DNA from: Octopus sinensis
Taxonomy: Eukaryota
Reading direction: 5' to 3'
Assembly (NCBI RefSeq): GCF_006345805.1
Contig: NC_043004.1
Location: forward strand, 43,276,001-43,340,000
DNA length: 64,000 nt
This document shows, in pieces, positions 7,807-64,000 of the stretch (position 1 is the stretch's first letter; each line of letters begins with the position of its first letter). The notes below the pieces were generated by a model. It was not told the DNA's origin, searched no databases, and was given only the letters and a program-made list of their open reading frames with translations. The position numbers and the translations under genes were made by a program.

Positions 7807-10007
7807 ACAAGAGCACTAATCGAGTGCAAACGTCCACCAATGTTTCTTTATTTTGGCACTAGGGCCACAACACAGAGGGGACACTACGAAAACAGACAAT
7901 ACCACAATGGGGTCAAAAATCATAAAACGAATGTAAATGAGATGTTATATAAAAATGAAAAATGAAATGGCTTCATGGGCTCCAGTCCTATGTAGTATCA
8001 TTTGAATGTTTATATAAACTATTTACAATCGTTCTATTATGTTATTGTTTTTTCTTAACCTAGCTTTTTCCTCTTTTTTTAAATGAAACAATTTTATTTC
8101 TTCCTTTTGTCTTCAATAAAACAATTTTACTTACTATTTACTTTTTTAATATCTCATGAAAGGTTCTAAATCTTTTAGCGTCACTACTGGTGCCAATTCA
8201 TCGAACTCTACCATCAGTTCTGACGGGTCAATCCCTTCTCCACACACGTCATTTAGTCTATTGTAGGTGTCCTTGTCAACCACGACGGCCTTCACATTCT
8301 CACTACACATCCGTGGGCAAATATTTCCTGCAACCGTCTTTCTGTTTCTTCCTCCAACAGCACCGCTTTCTCATCTCAATTGTACTCATTGTCAGCCTCT
8401 TTAACCCTTATTACAATTTTCTTTTCTTCCTCTAAAGTATTTTTGTAACTTCTCATAGTTCTTGCATATTTCCCCTTCGGCGACTATCTGCTGTTCCTCA
8501 CCACTCTCTTCCTCTGTTGCTGGTATTCCTGTCTTTGTTCGTCCTTTCTTCCCACTTTTATGTCTCTTCTTCTTCCGTCCTTCTTCCTCCTTACTAGTTA
8601 AAGGCAACTGTCTATGTGTTCGTTCCTCACTTGGCTCCCCATTCCTTCTTTTCTCGTTCTTGTTTTCCTCTGCCTTTCTTTTCTTCTTCGGGATTTTATG
8701 TGGGGATACCACATTACTCCTCTTTGTTTCTATCATTGCCTATTTTCCCAATATTCTCCTCCTCCGCTGTTGCACCCTCTTCTTCCTGACGTTCCTTCTC
8801 CGCTTCCGCTTGTTCGTGTTTCTGATAACACTTTACTTTCATGTCTCCCCTTACTACATATAAATAACATACCGGATATCTCCCTTCCACTAGAATTCAT
8901 AATATTGCCTCATCTGGTAGCACAAGCCCATCCGCAATTTTGTGGAGTACCGGCAGGCTTATATGGACCGACAGCTCCAGTCCATACCCCCAACAGTTCA
9001 GCTCCATCGTTCTCAATATCTTCAATACCTGTCTTCCCTGTGTTATAGAGGATGACTGCCACCAGCTACGCCTCATCAATTTCTGGAAGCACCCTAGCTA
9101 TTCTTACTCTGGCTGCACGTTTGCCACAGTAGGTAGGTAGCAGTGCCCACTCGTCTGATCCTAAAGGCACAGTGGAGCATTTCCTCGCTTCTTCTTCGCT
9201 TACGAAACGTACCACCACTGAGCCGTATTCCCTTCCTCTCGTGCAACATGTCGTTATATCCATTATCTCTCGTAGACACTCCTATACCGCTTCCTCCGCT
9301 GCTACTTCAATTTGTTTCGTTACCACATTCAACGTTCTATAAATAATTGCCCTATTTTCAGTTTTTTTTTCAAATATTTCTTTAGGGGGCGTCAACCTCA
9401 TGTTGTCCCTCTCCTCTCTCTTCGGCAAGCCATTATATATATATATTTTAATCCTCCTCCCTTAATTCGATTTCATGAACCTGCTGTACCTCTTCTGACA
9501 CGCCCTTGACAGTCACCGCAGGGTAATTGCTCGCTGGTTTGCTTTTCATGAGGGTATTACTCATAACTTCATCCAGTTCAACAATTCAGTGAATTAACAA
9601 TACAACAAAACCCACATTGAGTGGACACACTTCTCACACAGCTCGGAATCAAATGATTCGAAAAACAACACTAACGACAACGCCGGCGTACTCTCATCGA
9701 TTAGCCGGAGATGTTTGTTTTTTAAAATGAATATATCTTAAATTAACTCGAATGCTCTCATAAACGAGTATACTTAAAATGAACCCGTAGCTCTCAAAAA
9801 TAAATTTAAAAAAACCGAAATCCTTGTCAGGTACCGGATCGATACCAAAATATAATCAGTTTGTGCCAGTCACAAGGCCAAGCATCCCTGGTAGTTTCTC
9901 ACGAATCCATCCAGTGATTCTAGAGATATCTTGTCGACGGACTAACAAACAAACACAGAAACACGACTGAACAACAATGCGTCCGCCCTCGCTAAGGCGG
10001 AGGTAAT
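7807..10007 (+). mobile_element. Helentron-type non-autonomous element (HINE/DINE-1-like), split by a retroposon insertion
   Basis: 5' end AACAAGAGCAC...ACGTCCACC; 3' end with ACAA microsatellite, hairpin TCCGCC-8nt-GGCGGA and GGCGGAGGTAAT forming a subterminal inverted repeat with the 5' motif. Confidence 0.6.
7846..9710 (-). mobile_element. ORF1-only non-LTR retroposon (HAL1-like), decayed
   Basis: Minus-strand remnants SVVVRFVSEEEA, LLPTYCGKRAARVRIARV, VEGRYPVCYLCSK..H..KC zinc knuckle and a K/E-rich linker; tail ending AATAAAGAAA; ATGTTT at both junctions; no RT/EN seen. Confidence 0.7.
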
Positions 10008-12478
10008 TATTAGAATGCAAGTGTGAAATACTTTAATATCGGGGATCGCAGTTCAAATGACGATCCTATCTTATTTATGCTTTTCAAACGGCTGTCAGTA
10101 TACATCTGTTTATACTAGAGAAGAGGGTTAACTAGAGACTATTGTGAGAAAAACTAAACATAACGAAAGTGGTGGGAAAATATATAAATTACTACGATTA
10201 ACATATATGTATTACTTGAAAAAAGAAAAATAAACCGGCTATATAACACAAAAAAAAAACATTATGTCTCAAGTGATATCCTTACTACGTACAATTACAT
10301 ACCTGATAGTATTTTTCCAATACGAGTTTCAAGTGAGGTGAAAACAAACAGAAGCAGCTGTTATTAAAACAAAACAGAAGCGTACAAGACAGGATTCATA
10401 AGAAAACGAATTGATAACAAATTGTATCTCTATTGTGAATTGCTCAACATTCCCCAGTCTGAAAAGAGCACAGAAATTTTAGCTTGGCAGGAGCTCTGTA
10501 CACGAACACGCAAATACTCACGCACCCATGCAAACACACACGCACGCATACACACACACACACATGCATGTACACACATACACATGCACACACAGACTAC
10601 ACACACATATATACGCACACGCACACGAATACCCATAGCAACAATATGTATTGTTAATGACAGAATCACGAATGAAGGATGAGAGAGCCAGAATCGCTCT
10701 GTAGTTAGCCCTGTAACGCATCTCTTCTGTTTTGATTATTTCTCTGATTACAACGGCTCAACGTCTGCACAATGAGGGGAGATTGCGAAAATCTTCGAAA
10801 AGGTTTCTGGTGTATGACATCAACACAGAAGCAAGGAACAGATATGTAGCATGTGTAAGTTGGAGAAGAGGTTAAGAAGATATAGTTGGATTCTTCTAAT
10901 GTCTCATAAAGTATTCATGACTGAAATTATTAAACAATTATTAAACACGATTTATATTTAATGGGAAAATGTGACTTGTGTTGCGTGATTTATTCCCAGC
11001 TAATCAATGACATTCAAAATAGTAAACATTTCGGAATCCTGGAAGTTCTAGCCCATTCTTAGTCAGGTCTAATTAAAAATGAAACACGGTTTTGAATTTG
11101 AATGAATAAATATGTATGGCTTGAAGTAAATTTACATTCATAATAACTACAATTCATCAGGAAATTGAGAGATTAGCTTTTGTATCGCAATTTAGATAAA
11201 GTGCGAGTCAAATTTCGTGCAAAAGCACATCCTGCATATTGAAGCTGTCAACTGTTTTCCTCTGTAATTTTCTCAGTGATGAAACTGAATTTGTAGTTCA
11301 CTGCTGTTAATAGGTAAGATGCAAATGATCTATCCTGAGTGGGGAACCGGCTGAGTGTTTTGTAGTGTATATTAATGCTTACCGAACAAAGGTTTTCCAT
11401 AAGCATACCTATATGGCTAGAAACAGCAACGTTACACAACAGTTCGTAATTAATGTTACTCTATGGGAGAAATCAACAAAATTGATGTGAAGTATGATAA
11501 ATGTTAGAACATGTTATCATTATTACATATTATCATTATTACTCTCCGGAGTACTGCAAACAATTGAATATTTGTTTGATGATAGGAAAGTAGTTGCTGA
11601 CAAAATCTCACGTGAAGCCATTCTAACATGAAATCAGAAACACAGCGGATGAGTAAGATTACTTTTCAGGTGACATGCTGTTGAAGCAGAAAAAAAAAAC
11701 ACTACGAAAGTATTTACGTAATTCCTTGAATAAGCTTTCAAAAAAATCCAAACGGAATGCTTTATTTCTTTTCATTGGTTTTTGATTATCTAAATTAATT
11801 TCAAGGTAGTGTGCAACGCAGTTAATCTATTTATCTACGTATAAAATCTAAAGATGGATAAAGATCCTCTATATAATCTATAGAACGAAAACAACTGGTA
11901 TACTCTGACGACACTTTCTTCAAGATATAGGCGCTAACCAATGTAAAATATATTACAAGTACGGAAAATAAATTGCAAGTTTCTAATCTGTATATTGCTC
12001 TTAGAATGTTCGGTATGTTTATTTAGCGTAAATATTCTTGATGATATTGAAGATAACAAACCTTACCAGATTTTTTACTGCGTTACAGAGAGAACTGTTT
12101 AAAGTGAAATAATCAGAGCATTGGATTTTAAAAATGTATAAATGCCTACTTGTAATTAAATTCTTGAAAACTTTGTTTAACATGGTAGTAAATTACTTAA
12201 ATAATTATGAACACAAGTTTTGGGGATAGCAGAACCAAAATTCACAAACATATTTTGCATATAACACCAGTTTGTAAAGTAAGGTTACGACAAGAAGTAT
12301 TGCAAAACAATGCTAAACGTCAAGACTGAAATCTTAAATACACGCATATGTCCTAGTCCTGTGCGGTAGCCAGTTGTTAATCCTCAAGCTAGTCTGCCAA
12401 AATTATCGACCAGGTGTATTGAGTAGAGTACTTCCAGAAACAGTGCAGAGCGAAAGTGATATATATATATATATTGAA

Positions 12479-15660: not shown

Positions 15661-15709
15661 TGTCCGTGATTTATATATATATCTGTCTATTAATCTATAT
15701 ATCTATATA

Positions 15710-15940
15710 TTTCTTTACTACACACAAGGGGTTAAACACAGAGGGGACAAACAAGGACAAAAAAACGGATTAAGTCGATTACATCGACCCCAGTGCGCAA
15801 CTGATACTTAATTTATCGACCCCGAAAGGATGAAAGGCAAAGTCGACCTCGGCGGAATTTGAACTCAGAAGGTAACGACAGACGAAATAAGGCTACGCAT
15901 TTAGCCCGGCGTGCTAACGTTTCTGCCAACTCGCCGCCTC
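15710..15940 (-). mobile_element. SINE family D with LINE-type 3' tail
   Basis: Core TCGACCCCGAAAGGATGAAAGGCAAAGTCG recurs near 32990 and 57330; tail ACACAGAGGGGACA shared with 7870-7883. Confidence 0.85.
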
Positions 15941-38112: not shown

Positions 38113-38114
38113 AT

Positions 38115-39045
38115 ATTGTTCTATTTCGGAATGGTCATTTTGCCAGTTTAACCAATAAAAACACACGAACTATATATTTGGTGTTATTTTGCTTCAGTGT
38201 TATTTATTTTTTACATTAATCTTAATCTTATTTCGGCCAGAGTTCTTTCGTCACACTCCTGTGACCGCATCAGTGGTCCTTTGTTTTCTTCATTCTTATT
38301 TGTGTCTCTTCGTACTAACCGTTAGACATTTTGTAGAAGATAAGCCTAGCCTGAATAGGAAACCGGTATGGAGCACTGCCACACACCACAATATATGACG
38401 GTAGAGGATCCCCATAAACTGGTTGCAATATAAACAAAACCGAAAACATATTAAAACACACAGATCAATAAACAAATAGAAATAAATAACTATATAGGTT
38501 TTTTTGTTTGTTTAATTTAAAAGATTTTTTTGATTTATTATTATTATTACTTATATTGTTGTTATACATACATACATACAAGCATACGTAATGATAATAA
38601 TAATAAGTGAATGTAAACACATGAACAAAATAAGAATAAACAAAAACAACAACAAAAACAATTTACACGAACGTATATAAACAGAAGATACAAGTATTAC
38701 AGACATCCCCCCCCACACAAAATAAACATAGACGCACATAGAGATATAAGCATGTACAAATGAAGACATACAATAGAAATGCAACATGGCTGATGGTTAG
38801 TAAGTAGAGACGCAAATAAGAAAGAAGAAAACAAAGGACCACTGATACGGTCACAAGAGTGTGACGAAAGAACTCTGGCCGAAATAAGATTAAGATTAAT
38901 GTAAAAAATAAATAACACTGAAGCAACATAACACCAAATATATAATGCGTGTGTTTTTATTGGCTAACCTGGCAAAATAACCATTCCGAAATATAACAAT
39001 ACCTGTTTCAACACACGACTTCACGTAAAAAATCTTGCACAACAA
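38115..39045 (+). mobile_element. Short PLE copy: inverted pLTR (38115-38333) joined to the 3' end (38334-39045)
   Basis: 38334-39000 aligns with 51829-52455; 38115-38333 is the reverse complement of 38780-39000; flanked by (TA)n. Confidence 0.9.
38235..38278 (-). ncRNA. Hammerhead-like motif (core CTGATGC)
   Basis: GGACCA-CTGATGC-G-GTCACA GGAG TGTGAC-GAAA-GAAC-TC-TGGCC; copies at 38836-38880 and 52290-52334. Confidence 0.6.
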
Positions 39046-50890: not shown

Positions 50891-52455
50891 GACTACCCCA
50901 CTAAACACCCCAACCATAGACTACCAGTACTAGACACTGAACTCTGGCTAGAAATTGTGAATAATAAAACCCAAATCCTTCATTCATGCTATGCCAAACA
51001 TATGGCCTCAAAATACTTGATCCACCGGAACTCAGCAATTTCGAACAATGCCAAATTCAATATTTTGATGGCAGACCTTGTCAGAATAATGAGAAATGTG
51101 TCACGCATGTGCGAGCCCACAGAGTTAAAGAGACACATACAATATTTCATTCACCGCATGCAGTTCTCAGGTTACAGCCATAAAGAAAGGATCAGAGTAT
51201 ACAAAGGAGCCATGAAGAAATTTGATGATATATTATGTAATGATAGGAATGGGATTTGCCCACTCTATAGGAACAAATCATGGAACACTATAGAAAGGAC
51301 AAAAAAGAAAATAGGGAAGGCTAACTCTTGGTATGATAGCCATAAATACCAGAGTGTCATGTTCGTTGACACCACCCTTGGAGGTGAACTGGCGTACCGC
51401 TTTAGAAGGACTCTAGACAAACTTAAGCTAAGAATTAAAGTTGTTGAATAGCCGGGCAACCCTATCAAATCTATAATTAGTAGAACCTATCCTTTTAGTA
51501 GAACCCTCTGTACGGATAAGTACTGTACTGTATGTAGATTTAGCCCCCAAACAAACTGTAAAGCCAGAAATGTAGTCTATAATATAAGATGTATAGAGGG
51601 ACGATGCAGTAACAAGACAACGACATACTTAGGGGAAACGGCAAGAAGCATAGGAGAGCGGGTAAATGAGAATTGGAGACAACTCAAGGAAGGTAAAAGC
51701 TCAGCGATTCTGTACCAACAGGCCGAACAGGAACACGGGAAATCAATCAACAATATAGGAATTAAAATATTGTCCACACATAGAACAGATGCAACAATCA
51801 GACAAATTACAGAAGCTACACACATAATAGAAAATAAACCTAGCCTGAATAGTAAACTAGAATGGAGCACTAGCACACACCACAACATATGACGATAGAG
51901 GATCCCCAAAACATGATAAATACACAGATAAATAAACAAATAGAAATAAATAACTATTCGATTCGATTTATTATTATTATTACTAGTATTGTTGTTATAC
52001 ATACATACTTACATACATACAAGCATATGTAATGATAATAATAAGTGGATGTAAACACATGAACAAAATAATAATAAACAAAAGCAACAAGAACAAAAAC
52101 AAAATACAAATTACATGAACGTATATAAACAGAAGATACAAATATTACATGCACCCCCCCAAAAACACACACTAAATAAACATGGACGCATATAGAGATA
52201 TAAGCATGCGGAAATGAAGACATACAATAGAAATACAAAATGGCTGACGGTTAGTAAGGAGAGATACAAATAAGAAAGAAGAAAACAAAGGACCACTGAT
52301 GCGGTCACAGGAATGTAACGAAAGAACTCTGACCGAAATAAGATTAAGATTAATGTAAAAAATAAATAACACTGAAGCAAAGTAACACCAAATATATAGG
52401 GCGTGTGTTTTTATTGGCTAAACTGGCAATATGACCATTCCGAAATATAACAATA
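50891..52455 (+). mobile_element. 5'-truncated Penelope-like element (RT thumb, Cys-rich linker, GIY-YIG, pLTR)
   Basis: One frame 50891-51892 with a single TAG at 51449: DYPTKHPNHRLPVLD ... CTDKYCTVC..NC..NVVYNIRC..C..YLGETARS..ER ... EA..I..KPSLNSKLEW; ends in (TA)n. Confidence 0.92.
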
Positions 52456-55400
52456 TATATATATATATATATATACAGAGAGCGAGGCAGAGAGAGAGAG
52501 ATGAATAAATGCACAAATTAACACCGTGGCATACACAAACACACATGAATATATTTAAATATATATGTCTAAATATGTCTGCATGTACTATTTTGGGGTC
52601 CACATAGGAGAAAGTTAGTCATATCTAAATTCAAGTAATTCAATATATAGAATTATATTGATATATTTATTCCTGATAAGACTGATTCGATATTATTACC
52701 CTCGTTTTGCATATTCAGATTTTAGTTGGAAATCGTACACATTCTAAAGGGAAATGTATTTATTTCGTAAAGATATAGAAGTGAGAATATATATTTATCG
52801 GAGAGGAAAAAGATGCGAGGTTGCATCACGTAATAACTATTCTCATGGCAGAGACATCCCACAACATTTTCTAAAGCAATCGTGTGAAATGTACAACTGT
52901 TTGCCTTAAAATTATCTCCCTTCGCAGTTGTTAAGAATTGTCACTTGGATATGGATTTCTTCCCTCGCGGTTAGGCAAATGTCAATCACTTTCTCATCGT
53001 TGCTTATCCTGCAAAGAATCTTTTAAAACTGTATTGGAATGTTCTTGCAATACTTATTTTCCCTCCTGATCGTCTCAATCTAATGCACCAGTCCACCAGT
53101 TGGATGCTCGTTTCTGGGCGGGGCTGCGACTAAAGGCATCCATCCAATAACCATCTTCCATTGTGAAGGTTAACTCACTCCAATGAAGATGCATGATGGA
53201 TCGATAGGAAAGTCCTCTAGTAGAAAAAGACATCAAAAAGTTCCTCCCTATTCATTGGCAATCGGGAGAGGAATATTCCATTAGCTTACAAAGTGAGGAT
53301 ACTACAAACTACAGTAACATTTTCTGTTTTAAATTGAATAATTCTCTAATAGGGGAGATCACGTATACATCCTATGATCTTTTGATTCATAAAAATCTGG
53401 AAGCATTGAAAATATCTGTTCAGCATTAGTGAATGAAGCTGAAATGCGAAAAGTCTCACCGCCACTAACATCAAAGTAGGGTGCTTAATTTGGTAGCTAA
53501 AATCGGTGACTCGGTAAAAATAGGATACAAATAAGATGTGAAAATAAGGGTGTACTATGATTATACACTTATACTTCTAGTTATAAATATATATGTATAT
53601 ATGTGTTTGTGTCTATGCGTCTATGTGGAAATATAATTATATAAGCAGATACACTCGCACCCATAAATATATCTAGTATATATAAATTACAGTCTGAGTG
53701 TGCATAATGACATGATAGAATATCAAAATAAATACTGTTTTTTTGCGAAATTTTCCGATCGAAAACAATGCATATATCACGTCCTTTTACACCCGGGATT
53801 CCCAATGCGTAGCTCACGCCCCACCGGTGGAACATGGTAATATTTTGTTGAGGCATGGTAATATTTTGGTCAGGCATGCATAGTGTTATGTTGAATTTAT
53901 ACTCTTTAAACACAATGTTTAGTATACCAATAAGAGGAAAGGGGGCAATTCGAGAATGAGTTACTAAAAACAAAAATTCTTCACATCCCTTCTGCGGACA
54001 ATTTTATCAAATATATAAAATTTAATTAGAAAAAAAATACCTCTTCTTAAAATTTATGAGGAAAATACACCGAAGTTGTAAATTTTCCGACGACCTCGCC
54101 CTTCCTGTTGATTTCCACCCTTTTTTTTTTCATATTCGTTTCCTATACATTTTTTTTACGTGTGTTGCACTATTTTTTAACTTCTGTTTCCGGGTAATAT
54201 TGTAAAGATTTGCATAACAAAAATTAAATATGACAAGGGGGGATTCAGGATTTTAGAAATGATTCGGTGGAGCATGGCCAAAAATCTGTTGAGAACCACT
54301 GTTTTACACCAAAGGCATATATACCGATACAGAATATCATCACAGATTGTCATGGACAAACATATTACTTAAAATAACTGAATTTAGGTTCTCTTCTCCC
54401 CAACAATGTAAGAGCGAAATACGAAAATTGTCACAAAAATACTTGTCAATAATTAGTAATCTAATACATAGAGGCACATCCTAGGATGATGAAGAAGAGA
54501 TGGTAAGTGACATGCATTGCACAATATATACATTAAACATACACGAATATATCAGAAACTAAAGCTATTTAAATTTCAGAAACCACACATGAAAAGTATT
54601 AATGTCGATACAAAAGCTGAATACATGATCAAACATCAGCTAAAACAGATCGTAACCCATATAACCAAATGTAAATTAACACTAATAGTTTTTAAATAAA
54701 CAATCAAATTAAAAACTGTTTCCTCAATAAAATATCGCAATGTGTCAAAGTAAGAATATCTTACTAATGTCAAATATCTTTTAAAAAATTCGGTAGAAAA
54801 TGCTGAAGTCGCAAATTTCATGGTTGCAACCTTTACCTTGTTCATCCATGTACGGTACTCTGCGGAGATCCCCGCGTTTACTTGAAAGAAAAAGAATCTG
54901 TGATACACAGAATGATATAACACAAAACAATACTGGTCTATACAAAAACGCTTGGAAATGATGTAGTGTCTTTCCGTGACGCGAATCGTTTTTGTCCTTA
55001 TTTTGTCAACCGTAAGCGTAAAGAATGACCATTGGGTGATATTGAACGTTTAATGTCTACATATTTATCCCGTTAATTTTATAACTCTACAGTACTTATT
55101 TCTAATTATTTCTCACACTTTCCCTTCTCTCCCCCTCCCTCTCTATCTCCTTCTGTCTCCCCATTTCTCTTTCTGATGTCAACTACTTTTATTTTCTATG
55201 CTTCTCAATGGTAATATTCTTTGCTCAGTTGCCTTAAAACATTTCACTCGAGTGCATAAACAACGCACTGTTCACTTGCATCCATTATTCCACAACATGA
55301 CAGCCCAATGCCTAATGGAAGTTCATTATTAACACAAGTTTCTCTAATGCATATATGTATGTATGTGCTTTAGTGCGTGTGTAACTGTTTGTGCAAATGC

Positions 55401-58699: not shown

Positions 58700-59530
58700 A
58701 AATAATGAAGATCATTCATTGATGTGTATATAATAGGATATTCTGCCACTAGATGATGAAAGCAATGACAATAAACACTATAAAATTAAAAACAAAAATT
58801 AAAAGAAAAGTAAAGACAGGTATAAAAGGACGCTATTAAAAACTATCTGTAATTATAGAAGCCCTAGTATTTGTCCGCTCGCCGGTGTATGTCTTCAGTA
58901 TAATGTTATATACAAAAGAATTGTCAGGGTACCTAATAAATAGAATAGGGTATATATAGATAGCAATGTGGGAATCAATAGGAGAAACAGGGTCCACTTT
59001 AATTCCTTCACAAACCCTAAGTACAGTAACTCTACACCCCTAGGAACCTACGTAAATAAACTTGGGAATAATAACTTGAACTACGATCTCTCGTGTTATA
59101 TAATTGCGAAGCCCCGCCCCATTATGGGGCAAATTCTTACAGGTGTATATTATGTTTCAGGGAGTCGTATTAAACTGTATACCTCTAATATATTAAGTAG
59201 GTTTACAAATCCCATTCCTTCATGAAATCATAAAATACTCTCTACTTCTTTACAATCTTATAAAAATAGGCCACCTGACAGTTGTTTCAAACCGCACCCA
59301 TACGTTAGGAAATATATTAAGAAGCTAGATCTATCTCCACTCCTAAATTTATATTTGGACTACTCCAATGTAAATTTCTCGTTATGCCATTTATATAGTA
59401 ACTACAAAGCCTATATAAACATCTATTAGGTTCCAATATATTATTTTATGATGTAATTTGTTACGGAGTTTCCATTTTAGATTGTTTAAATTCTTGTATT
59501 GTAAGTTTAATTTGTTTTCTGTAAATTTAC
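58700..59530 (+). mobile_element. Decayed PLE GIY-YIG region of a further family
   Basis: CPLAGVCLQYNVIYK at 58872; R...H.NSF and NSTPL motifs downstream. Confidence 0.6.
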
Positions 59531-59531
59531 T

Positions 59532-61110
59532 GTCTAACGACACCTTGCTTTGCCACCTACGGCGGCCTTGTTAACGCCTTTCTCGCTTGCTTGAGTGGGG
59601 AAGCGCTGTATTGGAAATGTTAACAGAAAATATTAGCTCCTCAGGCTTGTCGTCGTCTGAGGAAGAGCTAGTGAAATGTTTAAAGAAAATAGATGAAGTG
59701 GGAGTGGTGAAGTATTTTGCAGAGGGGGTGAAGGATAAGAGTGAAGACATATGCCTCAGAGATTTAAGTACATTTAAAGAAATGCTTGAAAAGGAGGGTA
59801 ATTAGGTAAAGGTGTCCCCTCCCAGCGATACCATGGAAGAAGTCACATGCAGAACTATAATGTACAGAAGTACAATGTGAAAAACCATTGAAGAGAGGTC
59901 GCAACCAAAGCAGCGGTTGAAAGGACTTTGAGGGTCTCATGGAAGAAATAAAATATCATACAAAAGGAAAAAAAATTGCAACGATGGTGATGCAGTTTGA
60001 GTCGGAGTCTGTGGCTATGACTCCCCTCGAGACGGAAAAGGTAGTTCTTCTGCCCAGATAGCTGGGAAGACTTTCTTCCAGTGTAAGAATAGAATAGATC
60101 CCTCTTCAGGTGGATGTTGTCTGGTTGGTACCCGCCATCCAATTGGCATTGGCCTCCAGGCCAAGAAAGTATCTACGAGGAATTGGCAAGAGCAGGGCCT
60201 GGAAATGGTAATCCAGGTTGCCTCTGATGTTAGGAGAGGATGGTGGAAACCATCACAGTCGGTGAAGACGTAAAGTTGAGAGTTATGTTGGAAGGTAAGA
60301 CGCCCCGATGCTTTGAACGTGGAAAATGGTTCACATAAAAGCAGAAGCCCACCACCCAGCGCAAAAAAAGGAAAGAGGGCGCATCTCCACCTCTTGCGAC
60401 ATCCTGTGAGGTCGAGAAGAAGGTTGAGGAGGACGAGAACCAAGTGTCTGAAGTGGAACAAGGATGGTAATCTGAACCAAAATACAATATAGAGGAAAGA
60501 AAAGAAAGAGGAAAATATGAACCCCACCCTACTCACATCCGGCTCCCACGCAATGCCATCATTTTCCACCCTCCCCCTGTAATCACACACCCTCACCCTG
60601 CTCTGCTGGTACAGACACTTGCACTGACATCCAGATGCCCGAGATTCCAACATCCATTCCCCAAAAGAAAAAAAAAAGAAACGCAGATATAAAGTATGCT
60701 ATTTTATATGCCAATGCGTCAAGAACAGAAATAAACACTGATGTGCCGGTGGACATTTCAAAGTGCAAGGATTGGCCCGAGCACGTTGTGTGCGAATGGT
60801 GAGCAACAAAGACAGGATTAAGTTAAAGAAAAAGTATGGAGATAAACTAGTGGACCTAGAAAGGGAAATTGGCGTACGTTGCCTCCAAGATTGGCCTTTG
60901 ATCACATTGAAACTAACTTTTAATTATATAAAAAGAAAGTGTGTCAAATGTATTAAGTGAGGTCGCTCGGGTGTGGGGTCGCGTGTCCTTCATTCTATTA
61001 TCTTTATTCAATCCCATCTTTTCATTCATTTTTCTTTTCTTCCCACTTATAAGTTTGTCTGTCATTGAATTGCCCCCTCTTCGTTTATCCCGCGGTGGGC
61101 AATAAAGAAA
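59532..61110 (+). mobile_element. ORF1-only non-LTR retroposon (HAL1-like), decayed; homologous to 7846-9710
   Basis: MVMQFESESVA, LLPR*LGRLSSSVRIE, NWQEQGLEMVIQV, MLEGKTPRCFE knuckle remnant; tail CCCCTCT...GTGGGCAATAAAGAAA; AAATTTACT / AAATATTACT at the junctions. Confidence 0.7.
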
Positions 61111-61440
61111 TATTACTTCGATATGGAGAATGTCTTCCTAATGAAGTGGATATTATTTGCTAGCATAAGTGGAATTTTGAACTTTCTTACCTTACTAAAT
61201 TGTACCCCAGGAACGAACGTCGAATGAACATCCTCTAATAACAGGACTTTTCCTTAATGTTTAATCGTTTATTGTTTTGTAGTTATTTGCTCTTTGAAAT
61301 ATCTAAAACTATTTTTTTGCAACCTGACGACTTAGACGCTTTTCTACATAATTAATATATGTTTTACTTTATTTACAACTCAAACAATTTTACCTTATTT
61401 AGACCTCAACTGATTTTACATTATTTTAATCTATATTTGT

Positions 61441-61493: not shown

Positions 61494-64000
61494 CTATTGA
61501 TCTGCATTCAATTGGGTTAATGTATGTGTATTTTTAAAATACACATCTACAGAAATAAATTGACGTCCAACTAAATGAAATTATAAACATCTAAGAGACA
61601 ACAAACACACAAAACTAACTTTTCAAATGGAAGTAAGCCGTTCTCAATTTAGTAATAGAAACAATTCATCAATAAGAAATACTAGAAATAACCAGTCTAT
61701 TGATAGGCGTAATTATTTCTCCCCAGAAAATTGAAACGTTGAAGAAACTCAACCTACGGAATTTCGTCATATTTACCCAGAAAGAAAAATCAAATCCTCA
61801 GGTTCTCACATATGATTAATCACCCTAATAATTTATTCCAGCGAAGAAACTCGAGCAAGGTGCTTCTAAAACATTTACCCGAACAGCAACACCAACTCCA
61901 AAGCATTCCTAATATAATTAATAGCAATAATAACACTGATAACGTCTACCGACCAAATTACACTGAACACATTTTAGACCGGGTGGAGAGAAACAGGGAT
62001 GCATGTTGGAATAAACCATACAGGAGAAATTCAAAGTAATAAATTTATCAAAGAAAACTCTCTCCGCAACAAAAGTCTCTATACTAGGTAAAGGATTAAA
62101 ATCCATCCCAACCCCACGAAGATCTGACCATAATGAAATTAAAGACAATATTTCGGAATTCTGCAAAAAAAACCAAAAACACCCGCAGAAGCAGTAACTG
62201 ATAAACAACGAGGATTAATCACTGAAGTAATTATCTTCCACTTAAATGTAGGAATAAAATATTACATGACTTCTGCGTCCATATCCGAAATTTACCAAAT
62301 ACTTTCCATAATCTGAAAATCAATTGAAATCTTAACAGTGCAGAATGGAAAAATCTGATTAAACTACAAAATGACAAAGAATTGGCTGTACAAGAAGCAG
62401 ACAAATGAAGTGCTGTAGTCCTGATGGACACAGAATACTACAAATGCCTAGTATTATCCATGATAAAAAACGACAACTTCTACGAAAAAGTTGTAAACTA
62501 TAAACAACAAGACACAATGAAAAATCTGGTATCCCTAATACTTCTGTTTGGAAAAAGCCTGACAGAAAAATAAATAGATTACATCAAGTCTTTAAAGGTA
62601 AACCTATCCTTTTTTTAAATTAAAATACAAGAGAGCAAGGTAGTTAATGAAACCTGCCAACAATCACCAGGCAAAGACATAAATATCTAAGCGCCAGACG
62701 ACTTAAAGTTAAGATCCATTATAGCTGGCCCAGACTGTGGAACCCATTGCCGAACCAGTTTTCTAGACATCCTAATGAACCCCTTGCTCAAATACATCAA
62801 ACCTTCCATTAGAGACGATTTAGACAAGCTAGAGCACCTACCAGAAACAACTACTGATGCGGCATTATTGGTTTCCTCTGATGTTATCATTCTTTACACC
62901 AACATCCCACATGATTACGGAATAGAAGCAATACAATTCTGGTTGGAAAATTACTCCAAAGTACTTCGGGATCGCATGAACCTTGTCTTTATTATTGATT
63001 CTTTATAATTGATACTTCCTACTGAATGATACCCATTATCGTCGAATATGCGGAATTGCGATGGGAACGAAAGCAGTCCTTGTTCTTGCGAACATAGTAA
63101 TGGGTTATTTTGAATTCACTATATATGAAGTGTCACTGCAAAAATTTGGCTATCCATTTCACCATTATATAAGAGAGAACTGGAAAAGATACCTGGATGA
63201 ATGTTTTGCCATTTGAAAGGAGACCATTGATAAACTTTTGGAATTCAAATCAATACAAAATAAAATAAAAACCCTAACATTAAATTTACAGTGGAATATA
63301 GCAAACAACAGCTCCCTTTCCTGGATATTAGGATAAAAAAATATTCATAAACCAAATTATAACTGACATTTATCATAAACCAACTGACCCGTAGCAACAT
63401 CTCCTGTTTAGTTCATGCCACCCGAAACACATAGAAAGAAATATCCCTTTTAATTTAGCAAAAAGGATTTGCACAATAGTGTCTGATACAATTACTCAGT
63501 ACGTTCGTCATCTGGAACATAATATCCACCCTCACTTATAGGCGTTGGAATTAAGCGTGCTAAGCAATTAGACACTAAAACACTAAGGGTAACAAAACGT
63601 AACACTGCACCTCATCTCAAAACACTACTGTATATATCAACTCACAAACCTAAAAACAATAAGGTATGCAACTCTATTGTACAAAATTTACCTATGCTGA
63701 CTAGAGATCCAAAAATGAACAACATTCTGAAAATACATAACTTCATGAAAAGCACAGAAACAACACAAATCGCTAAAAGACTTCTAACAAATGCGAAGCT
63801 TTGCACTACCACGAAACCAACGGCTGAAAAATGTAGACGGCCAAACTGTGGATCATGCTGCAACCTACTGGATGGTCTGGAGTTCTTATTCAAACAAGGA
63901 GGGATGTTCACAATTAAAACCAATGTCACTTGTGTTTCCGAGAATCAAATTTATGTTATAACTTGCTCAGGTTTTGGACATAACTATACTGGACAGAGAA
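61490..64000 (+). mobile_element. Long Penelope-like element, pseudogenised, running off the window end
   Basis: LGKGLK, DVIILYTNIPH, GIAMGT, WKRYLDECF, LPFLDI, SCHPKH..NIPFNLAKRICTIVS, NVTCVSENQIYVITCSG. Confidence 0.93.

What the first reader, a model, noticed from the sequence alone, without database searches (positions are those of the whole stretch)
59532..61110. Second, highly diverged ORF1-only retroposon of the same design
Seen: I could match it to copy 1 only at protein level, collinearly: LLPR*LGRLSSSVRIE vs LLPTYCGKRAARVRIA; NWQEQGLEMVIQV vs NCWGYGLELSVHI; MLEGKTPRCF vs LVEGRYPVCY. It also lacks ORF2, ends in AATAAAGAAA and has TSD-like AAAT(A)TTACT. Inference: two distant families with the same RT-less layout suggest a long-lived lineage that kept ORF1 under selection, rather than chance deletions.
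Basis: partly seen in the sequence, partly recalled or inferred. Interest (0 to 1): 0.7.

Follow-up and report, generated by a model that had tools for sequence, protein, structure and literature searches.

The report
Octopus half-LINE lineages keeping only ORF1
This is a dead 1.65-kb copy of a multi-copy jumping gene, likely from an octopus, that kept only the RNA-binding gene of a LINE retrotransposon under purifying selection and likely spread by borrowing the enzyme of full-length relatives, a strategy already known from mammals and flies.

Summary
Real. Window ~59,470-61,111 (+) is a decayed copy of a dispersed ORF1-only retroposon: 5' UTR, broken ORF1 (predicted two RRMs, CCHC knuckle), no ORF2, 3' tail. 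Homologous ORF1 precedes an endonuclease-RT ORF2 in L1/Tx1-type LINEs of this genome, which share the tail. Its clade has no endonuclease downstream in 60 of 60 sampled loci. Six of 8 complete siblings have 13-23-bp TSDs. ORF1 was under purifying selection between ORF2-less subfamilies (net dN/dS 0.11-0.19; neutral simulation 0.58-0.84). So a long-lived ORF1-only lineage is supported. Two claims fail or stay open. The quoted TSD is element-internal. One shared RT-less origin with copy 1 is not shown: this ORF1 is closer to autonomous families (44-49%) than to copy 1's (35%) and the best trees separate them, but AU tests do not reject one clade (p about 0.2). The design is known (HAL1, HeT-A, Ag-Sponge); my five paper searches found no Tx1-type or cephalopod case. 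The scan noted such elements before at other places in this genome.

The parts
59470..61111 (+). Whole ORF1-only non-LTR element, dead copy (family 2, clade X); 5' end uncertain by about 10 nt
   Evidence: 52 matches from 40 scored of 242 candidates in G000; ends from sibling alignments
59470..59616 (+). 5' UTR, T-rich; internal promoter inferred, not tested
   Evidence: conserved in siblings
59523..59531 (+).
   Evidence: same letters inside siblings L003, L005 and others
59578..59603 (+). Decayed 5' UTR hairpin just before the ORF1 start, shared with autonomous family A and L244
   Evidence: motif counts, folds, position
59617..60960 (+). ORF1 pseudogene with many stops and frame breaks; 3' end approximate
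   Evidence: three-frame translation; sibling translations
59932..60325 (+). Core with two predicted RRM-like domains
   Evidence: profile hits E 1e-13 and 6e-5 (the profile includes one family-2 sibling and other clade X members); model of a homologue, pLDDT 86, matches tandem-RRM proteins
60309..60350 (+). Broken CCHC zinc knuckle
   Evidence: intact in siblings P0001 and P0002, PF00098 above cutoff
60955..61111 (+). 3' UTR; its last ~60 nt are a tail ending AATAAAGAAAT, shared with autonomous LINEs, copy 1 and an abundant short repeat
7843..10010 (-). Copy 1: dead ORF1-only element of a different clade (Y); 5' end approximate

Best explanation
The element is a dead copy of a multi-copy, ORF1-only derivative of the L1-group (likely Tx1) LINEs of this genome, whose ORF2-less lineage kept ORF1 under purifying selection and likely moved by borrowing the endonuclease-reverse transcriptase of full-length relatives through the shared 3' tail. 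Shown: multi-copy ORF2-less units with TSDs; ORF1 homologous to that of autonomous LINEs; shared tail; purifying selection between ORF2-less subfamilies. Inferred: transcription from the 5' UTR; ORF1p (two RRMs plus CCHC) coating its own RNA in cis and joining autonomous particles; ORF2p acting in trans on the tail by target-primed reverse transcription. Its clade (X) most likely lost ORF2 separately from copy 1's clade (Y), about 65:35. X looks extinct (no complete intact ORF1 seen), while Y has intact young copies.
For: ORF1 precedes an endonuclease by 494-821 nt in 56 loci of several families and in 18 of 20 loci of another family. That ORF2 has Exo_endo_phos, RVT_1 and zf-RVT, with human L1 ORF2p as best PDB hit (E 4e-67). 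Clade X: 0 of 60 loci with an endonuclease downstream, 26 with a detectable tail; clade Y: 0 of 74, 53 with a tail. TSDs of 13-23 bp in 6 of 8 complete family-2 copies. Net dN/dS 0.11-0.19 in X, 0.06-0.13 in Y, 0.14 for autonomous A against A2; neutral simulation 0.58-0.84. X is one side of a branch, 94-96 bootstrap. Copies with evident deletions (L193, L194) stay inside family A on the tree. Family-2 tails score 52-71 against family G, shuffled maximum 35-39.
Against: Sampling is partial: about 85 of 150 hits, 50 of 150, 20 of 151, and each search scores only top candidates. 34 of 60 X loci have no recognised tail, so their ORF2-less status rests on absence of an endonuclease alone. Seven X loci look like segmental duplicates of one insertion. 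L169 (Y) and L174 (X) have internal ORF2 pieces downstream. dS between family 2 and other X groups is 1.7-1.9, near saturation. Groups X2-X5 were picked by protein similarity, which favours low dN, and bootstraps had only 22-40 usable replicates. The 5' hairpin is also absent from X2 and X3 (0 of 14). The window copy lacks a TSD. Trans-mobilisation was not tested.
Confidence: 0.85

Rival explanations
1. Same mechanism, but X and Y descend from one ancient ORF2 loss.
For: AU tests do not reject X+Y as one clade (p 0.21; 0.195). Backbone support is only 81-87. Both share layout and tail.
Against: Best trees nest X among autonomous families, with another autonomous family outside (autonomous rows form one side in 0% of bootstraps). 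Family 2 is 44-49% identical to autonomous ORF1 and 33-35% to Y. The 5' hairpin occurs in family 2 (7 of 10) and A (10 of 10) but in 0 of 53 Y; the pattern was drawn from A and family 2.
Confidence: 0.3
2. Each ORF1-only subfamily is a short-lived deletion product of an unsampled or extinct autonomous parent, and the selection signal belongs to those parents.
For: Internally deleted copies of autonomous families exist (L193, L262, L263). Sampling is partial.
Against: 0 of 134 X and Y loci with enough flank have an endonuclease downstream, although extinct parents should leave fossils of the same age. Y has intact 450-470-aa ORF1s ending about 180 nt before the tail.
Confidence: 0.1
3. A gag-like relic of an LTR element, or retrocopies of a host gene.
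For: CCHC knuckle; feature similarity to ZCCHC3-type domains (0.90, a lead only).
Against: Homologues sit before an endonuclease-RT ORF2. Sibling ends show TSDs and a LINE tail, with no terminal repeat.
Confidence: 0.02

Closest known systems
HAL1 (half-L1) of mammals (passages in PMC5753468 and PMC5786205; Bao and Jurka 2010 itself not held)
   Same: Non-autonomous, encodes only ORF1p, derived from the L1 group; reported to have arisen independently several times.
   Different: Here the ORF1 is predicted two RRMs plus CCHC, the parents are Tx1-like, and the element ends in a conserved tail shared with partner LINEs rather than poly(A).
HeT-A and other ORF1-only telomeric Jockey elements of Drosophila (passages in PMC13534243)
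   Same: ORF2 lost repeatedly (about 40% of families ORF1-only); head-to-tail arrays, as in young clade Y here.
   Different: Jockey clade and telomeric; the elements here lie at interior positions of many contigs.
Ag-Sponge (CR1-derived; passage in PMC5786205)
   Same: ORF1-present bipartite non-autonomous LINE.
   Different: Different clade and host.
Tx1-clade LINEs such as Tx1L, Keno, Kibi (passages in PMC4494074)
   Same: Likely clade of the partner LINEs; autonomous family A ends at (TC)n like Kibi.
   Different: Those carry ORF2; no target preference was established for family 2.

Membership tests
ORF1-present non-autonomous LINE (HAL1/HeT-A type) | ORF1 homologous to that of an autonomous LINE | tested here: met
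   44-49% identity to ORF1s that precede ORF2
ORF1-present non-autonomous LINE (HAL1/HeT-A type) | ORF2 absent, 3' end of a LINE retained | tested here: met
ORF1-present non-autonomous LINE (HAL1/HeT-A type) | Amplified as an ORF2-less unit, with TSDs | tested here: met
   6 of 8 complete copies have TSDs; the window copy does not
ORF1-present non-autonomous LINE (HAL1/HeT-A type) | Mobilised in trans by an autonomous ORF2p | not testable with these tools
   inferred from shared tail and TSDs
HAL1 proper | Descent from mammalian L1, with its ORF1 | tested here: not met
   Pfam finds only zf-CCHC on intact ORF1s; named homologues are octopod proteins
Tx1 clade (partner LINEs) | Endonuclease + RT + C-terminal zinc domain of the L1 group | tested here: met
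Tx1 clade (partner LINEs) | RT groups with Tx1 rather than L1 references | tested here: inconclusive
   one hit named 'Transposon TX1' (38%, E 3e-78) among 120 listed, most unnamed; no RT tree with references was built
Single RT-less lineage with copy 1 | X and Y form one clade that excludes autonomous families | tested here: inconclusive
   not in the best trees, not rejected by AU

The most novel reading that the evidence does not exclude
One RT-less, ORF1-coding retroposon lineage older than the split of Octopus species has diversified more deeply than its autonomous partners in this genome and survived their turnover by keeping a compatible 3' tail: a protein-coding hyperparasite whose young members still build intact 1.7-kb head-to-tail arrays. 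An O. bimaculoides protein falls inside clade Y, though its ORF2-less status was not checkable.
Probability: 0.25. Interest if true: 0.65.

Novelty: new member of a known kind. Interest (0 to 1): 0.4.

Why it matters
It extends the half-LINE strategy to a likely fourth LINE clade and to molluscs, and shows ORF1 held under LINE-strength constraint without ORF2 over several diverged subfamilies. Intact young ORF1-only elements, autonomous partners and a tail-sharing short repeat coexist in one genome. That makes an open question testable: what does an element gain by bringing its own ORF1p when a non-coding repeat moves with the same tail? The window copy itself is an unremarkable fossil.

Tried and rejected
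Autonomous parent inside family 2: none found; the ORF2 piece in L012 follows a second 5' UTR motif and reads as another element inserted. ORF2 relic in the element: none. A-to-G hyper-editing, a lead from e1-9577793: not in this copy (A>G 3%, G>A 7%). dN/dS between family 2 and copy 1's family or autonomous families: saturated, not computable. Monophyly tests: inconclusive. The word-indexed ORF1 search gave 1 hit among 2794 candidates. tRNA scan of 5 short-repeat loci found 0 genes, so 'SINE' is untested here. Pfam on 6 other window frames: nothing above cutoff. Look-up of earlier findings by sequence: nothing. Paper searches listed no Tx1-derived or cephalopod ORF1-only family. Repbase, Dfam, subscription papers and supplements were not seen and may hold these families.

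Full report
Observation. The quoted peptides are present and collinear in the element (+) and in copy 1 (about 10,010-7,843, minus). Their protein match beats 1000 shuffles (78 against a maximum of 55) while DNA matches are 32 nt or shorter. Four ORF2 queries find nothing better than E 0.63 in the element. The element is a dispersed repeat: 52 matches of 64-80% identity (besides itself) from 40 scored of 242 candidates. Homology with siblings begins near 59,470 and ends at AATAAAGAAAT, 61,111. Of 14 family-2 copies given to a TSD test, 8 had both ends. Six show 13-23-bp flanking repeats (p 0.017 or less against 300 random stretches); the window copy and L019 do not. The window copy is 10% diverged at conserved columns, like its 17 siblings (7-16%), with no editing bias.

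What it is. Open frames in siblings carry a CCHC knuckle. A model of the core from a 24-row alignment of natural copies (pLDDT 86) shows two RRM-like domains that match tandem-RRM proteins at E about 1e-4. Named homologues are Octopus and Argonauta proteins, so the host is likely an octopus. In G000 the same ORF1 precedes an ORF2 with endonuclease, RT and zf-RVT domains in several families. Human L1 ORF2p is the best PDB hit, and one of 120 listed homologues is named Tx1. The Tx1 label is therefore likely, not tested by tree. Autonomous families, both ORF1-only clades and an abundant short repeat share the last ~60 nt.

Is the ORF2-less form a lineage? Of 212 ORF1 instances found in 250 loci and the window, 200 with enough coverage went into a tree. 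The finding lies in clade X: 60 instances, all with 1400 nt or more downstream, none with an endonuclease, 26 with a tail. Copy 1 lies in clade Y: 80 instances, 74 with enough flank, none with an endonuclease, 53 with a tail. The 56 autonomous instances have the endonuclease 494-821 nt downstream. Seven X loci look like duplicates of one insertion, and only part of the search hits were fetched (about 85 of 150, 50 of 150, 20 of 151). Copies with evident deletions exist and stay within their parent family (L193 in A; L262 and L263 are 73-74% identical to their family's ORF1). Pairwise NG86 counts on natural copies give dN/dS 0.39 within family 2 and 0.19-0.22 between it and four other X groups. 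After subtracting within-group decay, values are 0.11-0.19 across seven X comparisons and 0.06-0.13 across six computable Y comparisons (one with an interval reaching 1.16). Autonomous controls gave 0.14 (A) and 0.28 (B, wide interval). Neutral simulations give 0.58-0.84, and the most star-like groups 0.63-0.64. Caveats are near-saturated dS, selection of loci by protein similarity and few bootstrap replicates. Y includes intact 450-470-aa ORF1s ending about 180-210 nt before the tail and 1.7-kb head-to-tail arrays. I saw no complete intact X copy.

One origin or two? Family-2 ORF1 is 51-54% identical to other X groups, 44-49% to the nearest autonomous families and 33-35% to Y. Three ML trees (53, 47 and 43 rows) keep X together at 94-96 bootstrap and join it with autonomous families at 81-87, with Y outside (backbone values from 54 and 74). 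Rows were chosen by hand, L114 was left out of the last two, and the outgroups are long. AU tests do not reject one ORF1-only clade (p 0.21 and 0.195). A 5' UTR hairpin is shared by family 2 and family A and absent from 53 Y loci, but also from X2 and X3. I put separate losses at about 65%.

Mechanism. Shown: TSD-flanked ORF2-less units, conserved ORF1, shared tail. Inferred: the transcript makes ORF1p, which coats its own RNA, and a partner's ORF2p binds the tail and copies the RNA into a target nick. Family G's tail scores highest against family-2 tails (52-71), but B is close (46-62), so the partner is not identified. Kojima 2018 suggests such ORF1 proteins multimerise with those of the partner (passage).

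What is known. ORF1-present non-autonomous LINEs are described from L1 (HAL1), Jockey (HeT-A) and CR1 (Ag-Sponge) (PMC5786205, passages). HAL1 arose several times (PMC5753468, passages). About 40% of Drosophila telomeric families are ORF1-only (PMC13534243, passages). Tx1 target preferences come from PMC4494074 (passages), and L1-Tx1 as part of the coleoid repeat set from PMC8967140 (passages). Bao and Jurka 2010 was not held. Five searches (listings only) showed no Tx1-type or cephalopod example; repeat databases and supplements were not seen. Earlier unreviewed notes of this scan describe ORF1-only elements at other places in this genome; they are leads, not support.

Verdict. A real, well-supported new member of a known kind. 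The lineage-with-selection reading holds for each family; the single-origin reading is open and slightly disfavoured; the TSD claim is wrong. Interest 0.4.

Noticed in passing
L296-L301, L305, L308, L309, L311: Young clade Y elements in head-to-tail arrays with about 1.7-kb period and open frames of 444-463 aa in many units; several arrays end on the same downstream sequence, which resembles the unit's own 5' start.
   Followed up: partly
L109, L207, L235, L240, L244: An ORF1-only element with tail sits directly in front of an autonomous LINE. A tail lies within 700 nt upstream of 23 of 70 Y and 7 of 54 X cores.
   Followed up: partly
L091-L103, L105, L110: Autonomous family A ends at (TC)n microsatellites, like the Kibi family of fish (PMC4494074 passage).
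   Followed up: no
L019, L030: Two family-2 copies with A>G excess (0.15 and 0.21, against 0.01-0.10 in the other 15 siblings); editing or subfamily difference.
   Followed up: no
window 61,900-64,000 (+): Decayed RT-like coding stretch, Penelope-like by eye (recalled label; the one frame tested had no Pfam hit). It does not match the partner ORF2s.
   Followed up: partly
L219 (about 16 kb before the window on C8): Autonomous family B element with ORF1 and endonuclease.
   Followed up: no
window 38,113-38,335, 38,782-39,001, 52,234-52,456 and 15,707-15,766: Three copies of a ~220-nt repeat, 92-93% alike, and a separate match to the 3' tail.
   Followed up: no
P0003, P0044: Public gene models contain this ORF1: one is named EPM2A-interacting 1-like, one is joined to a long unrelated protein; likely annotation artefacts.
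   Followed up: no
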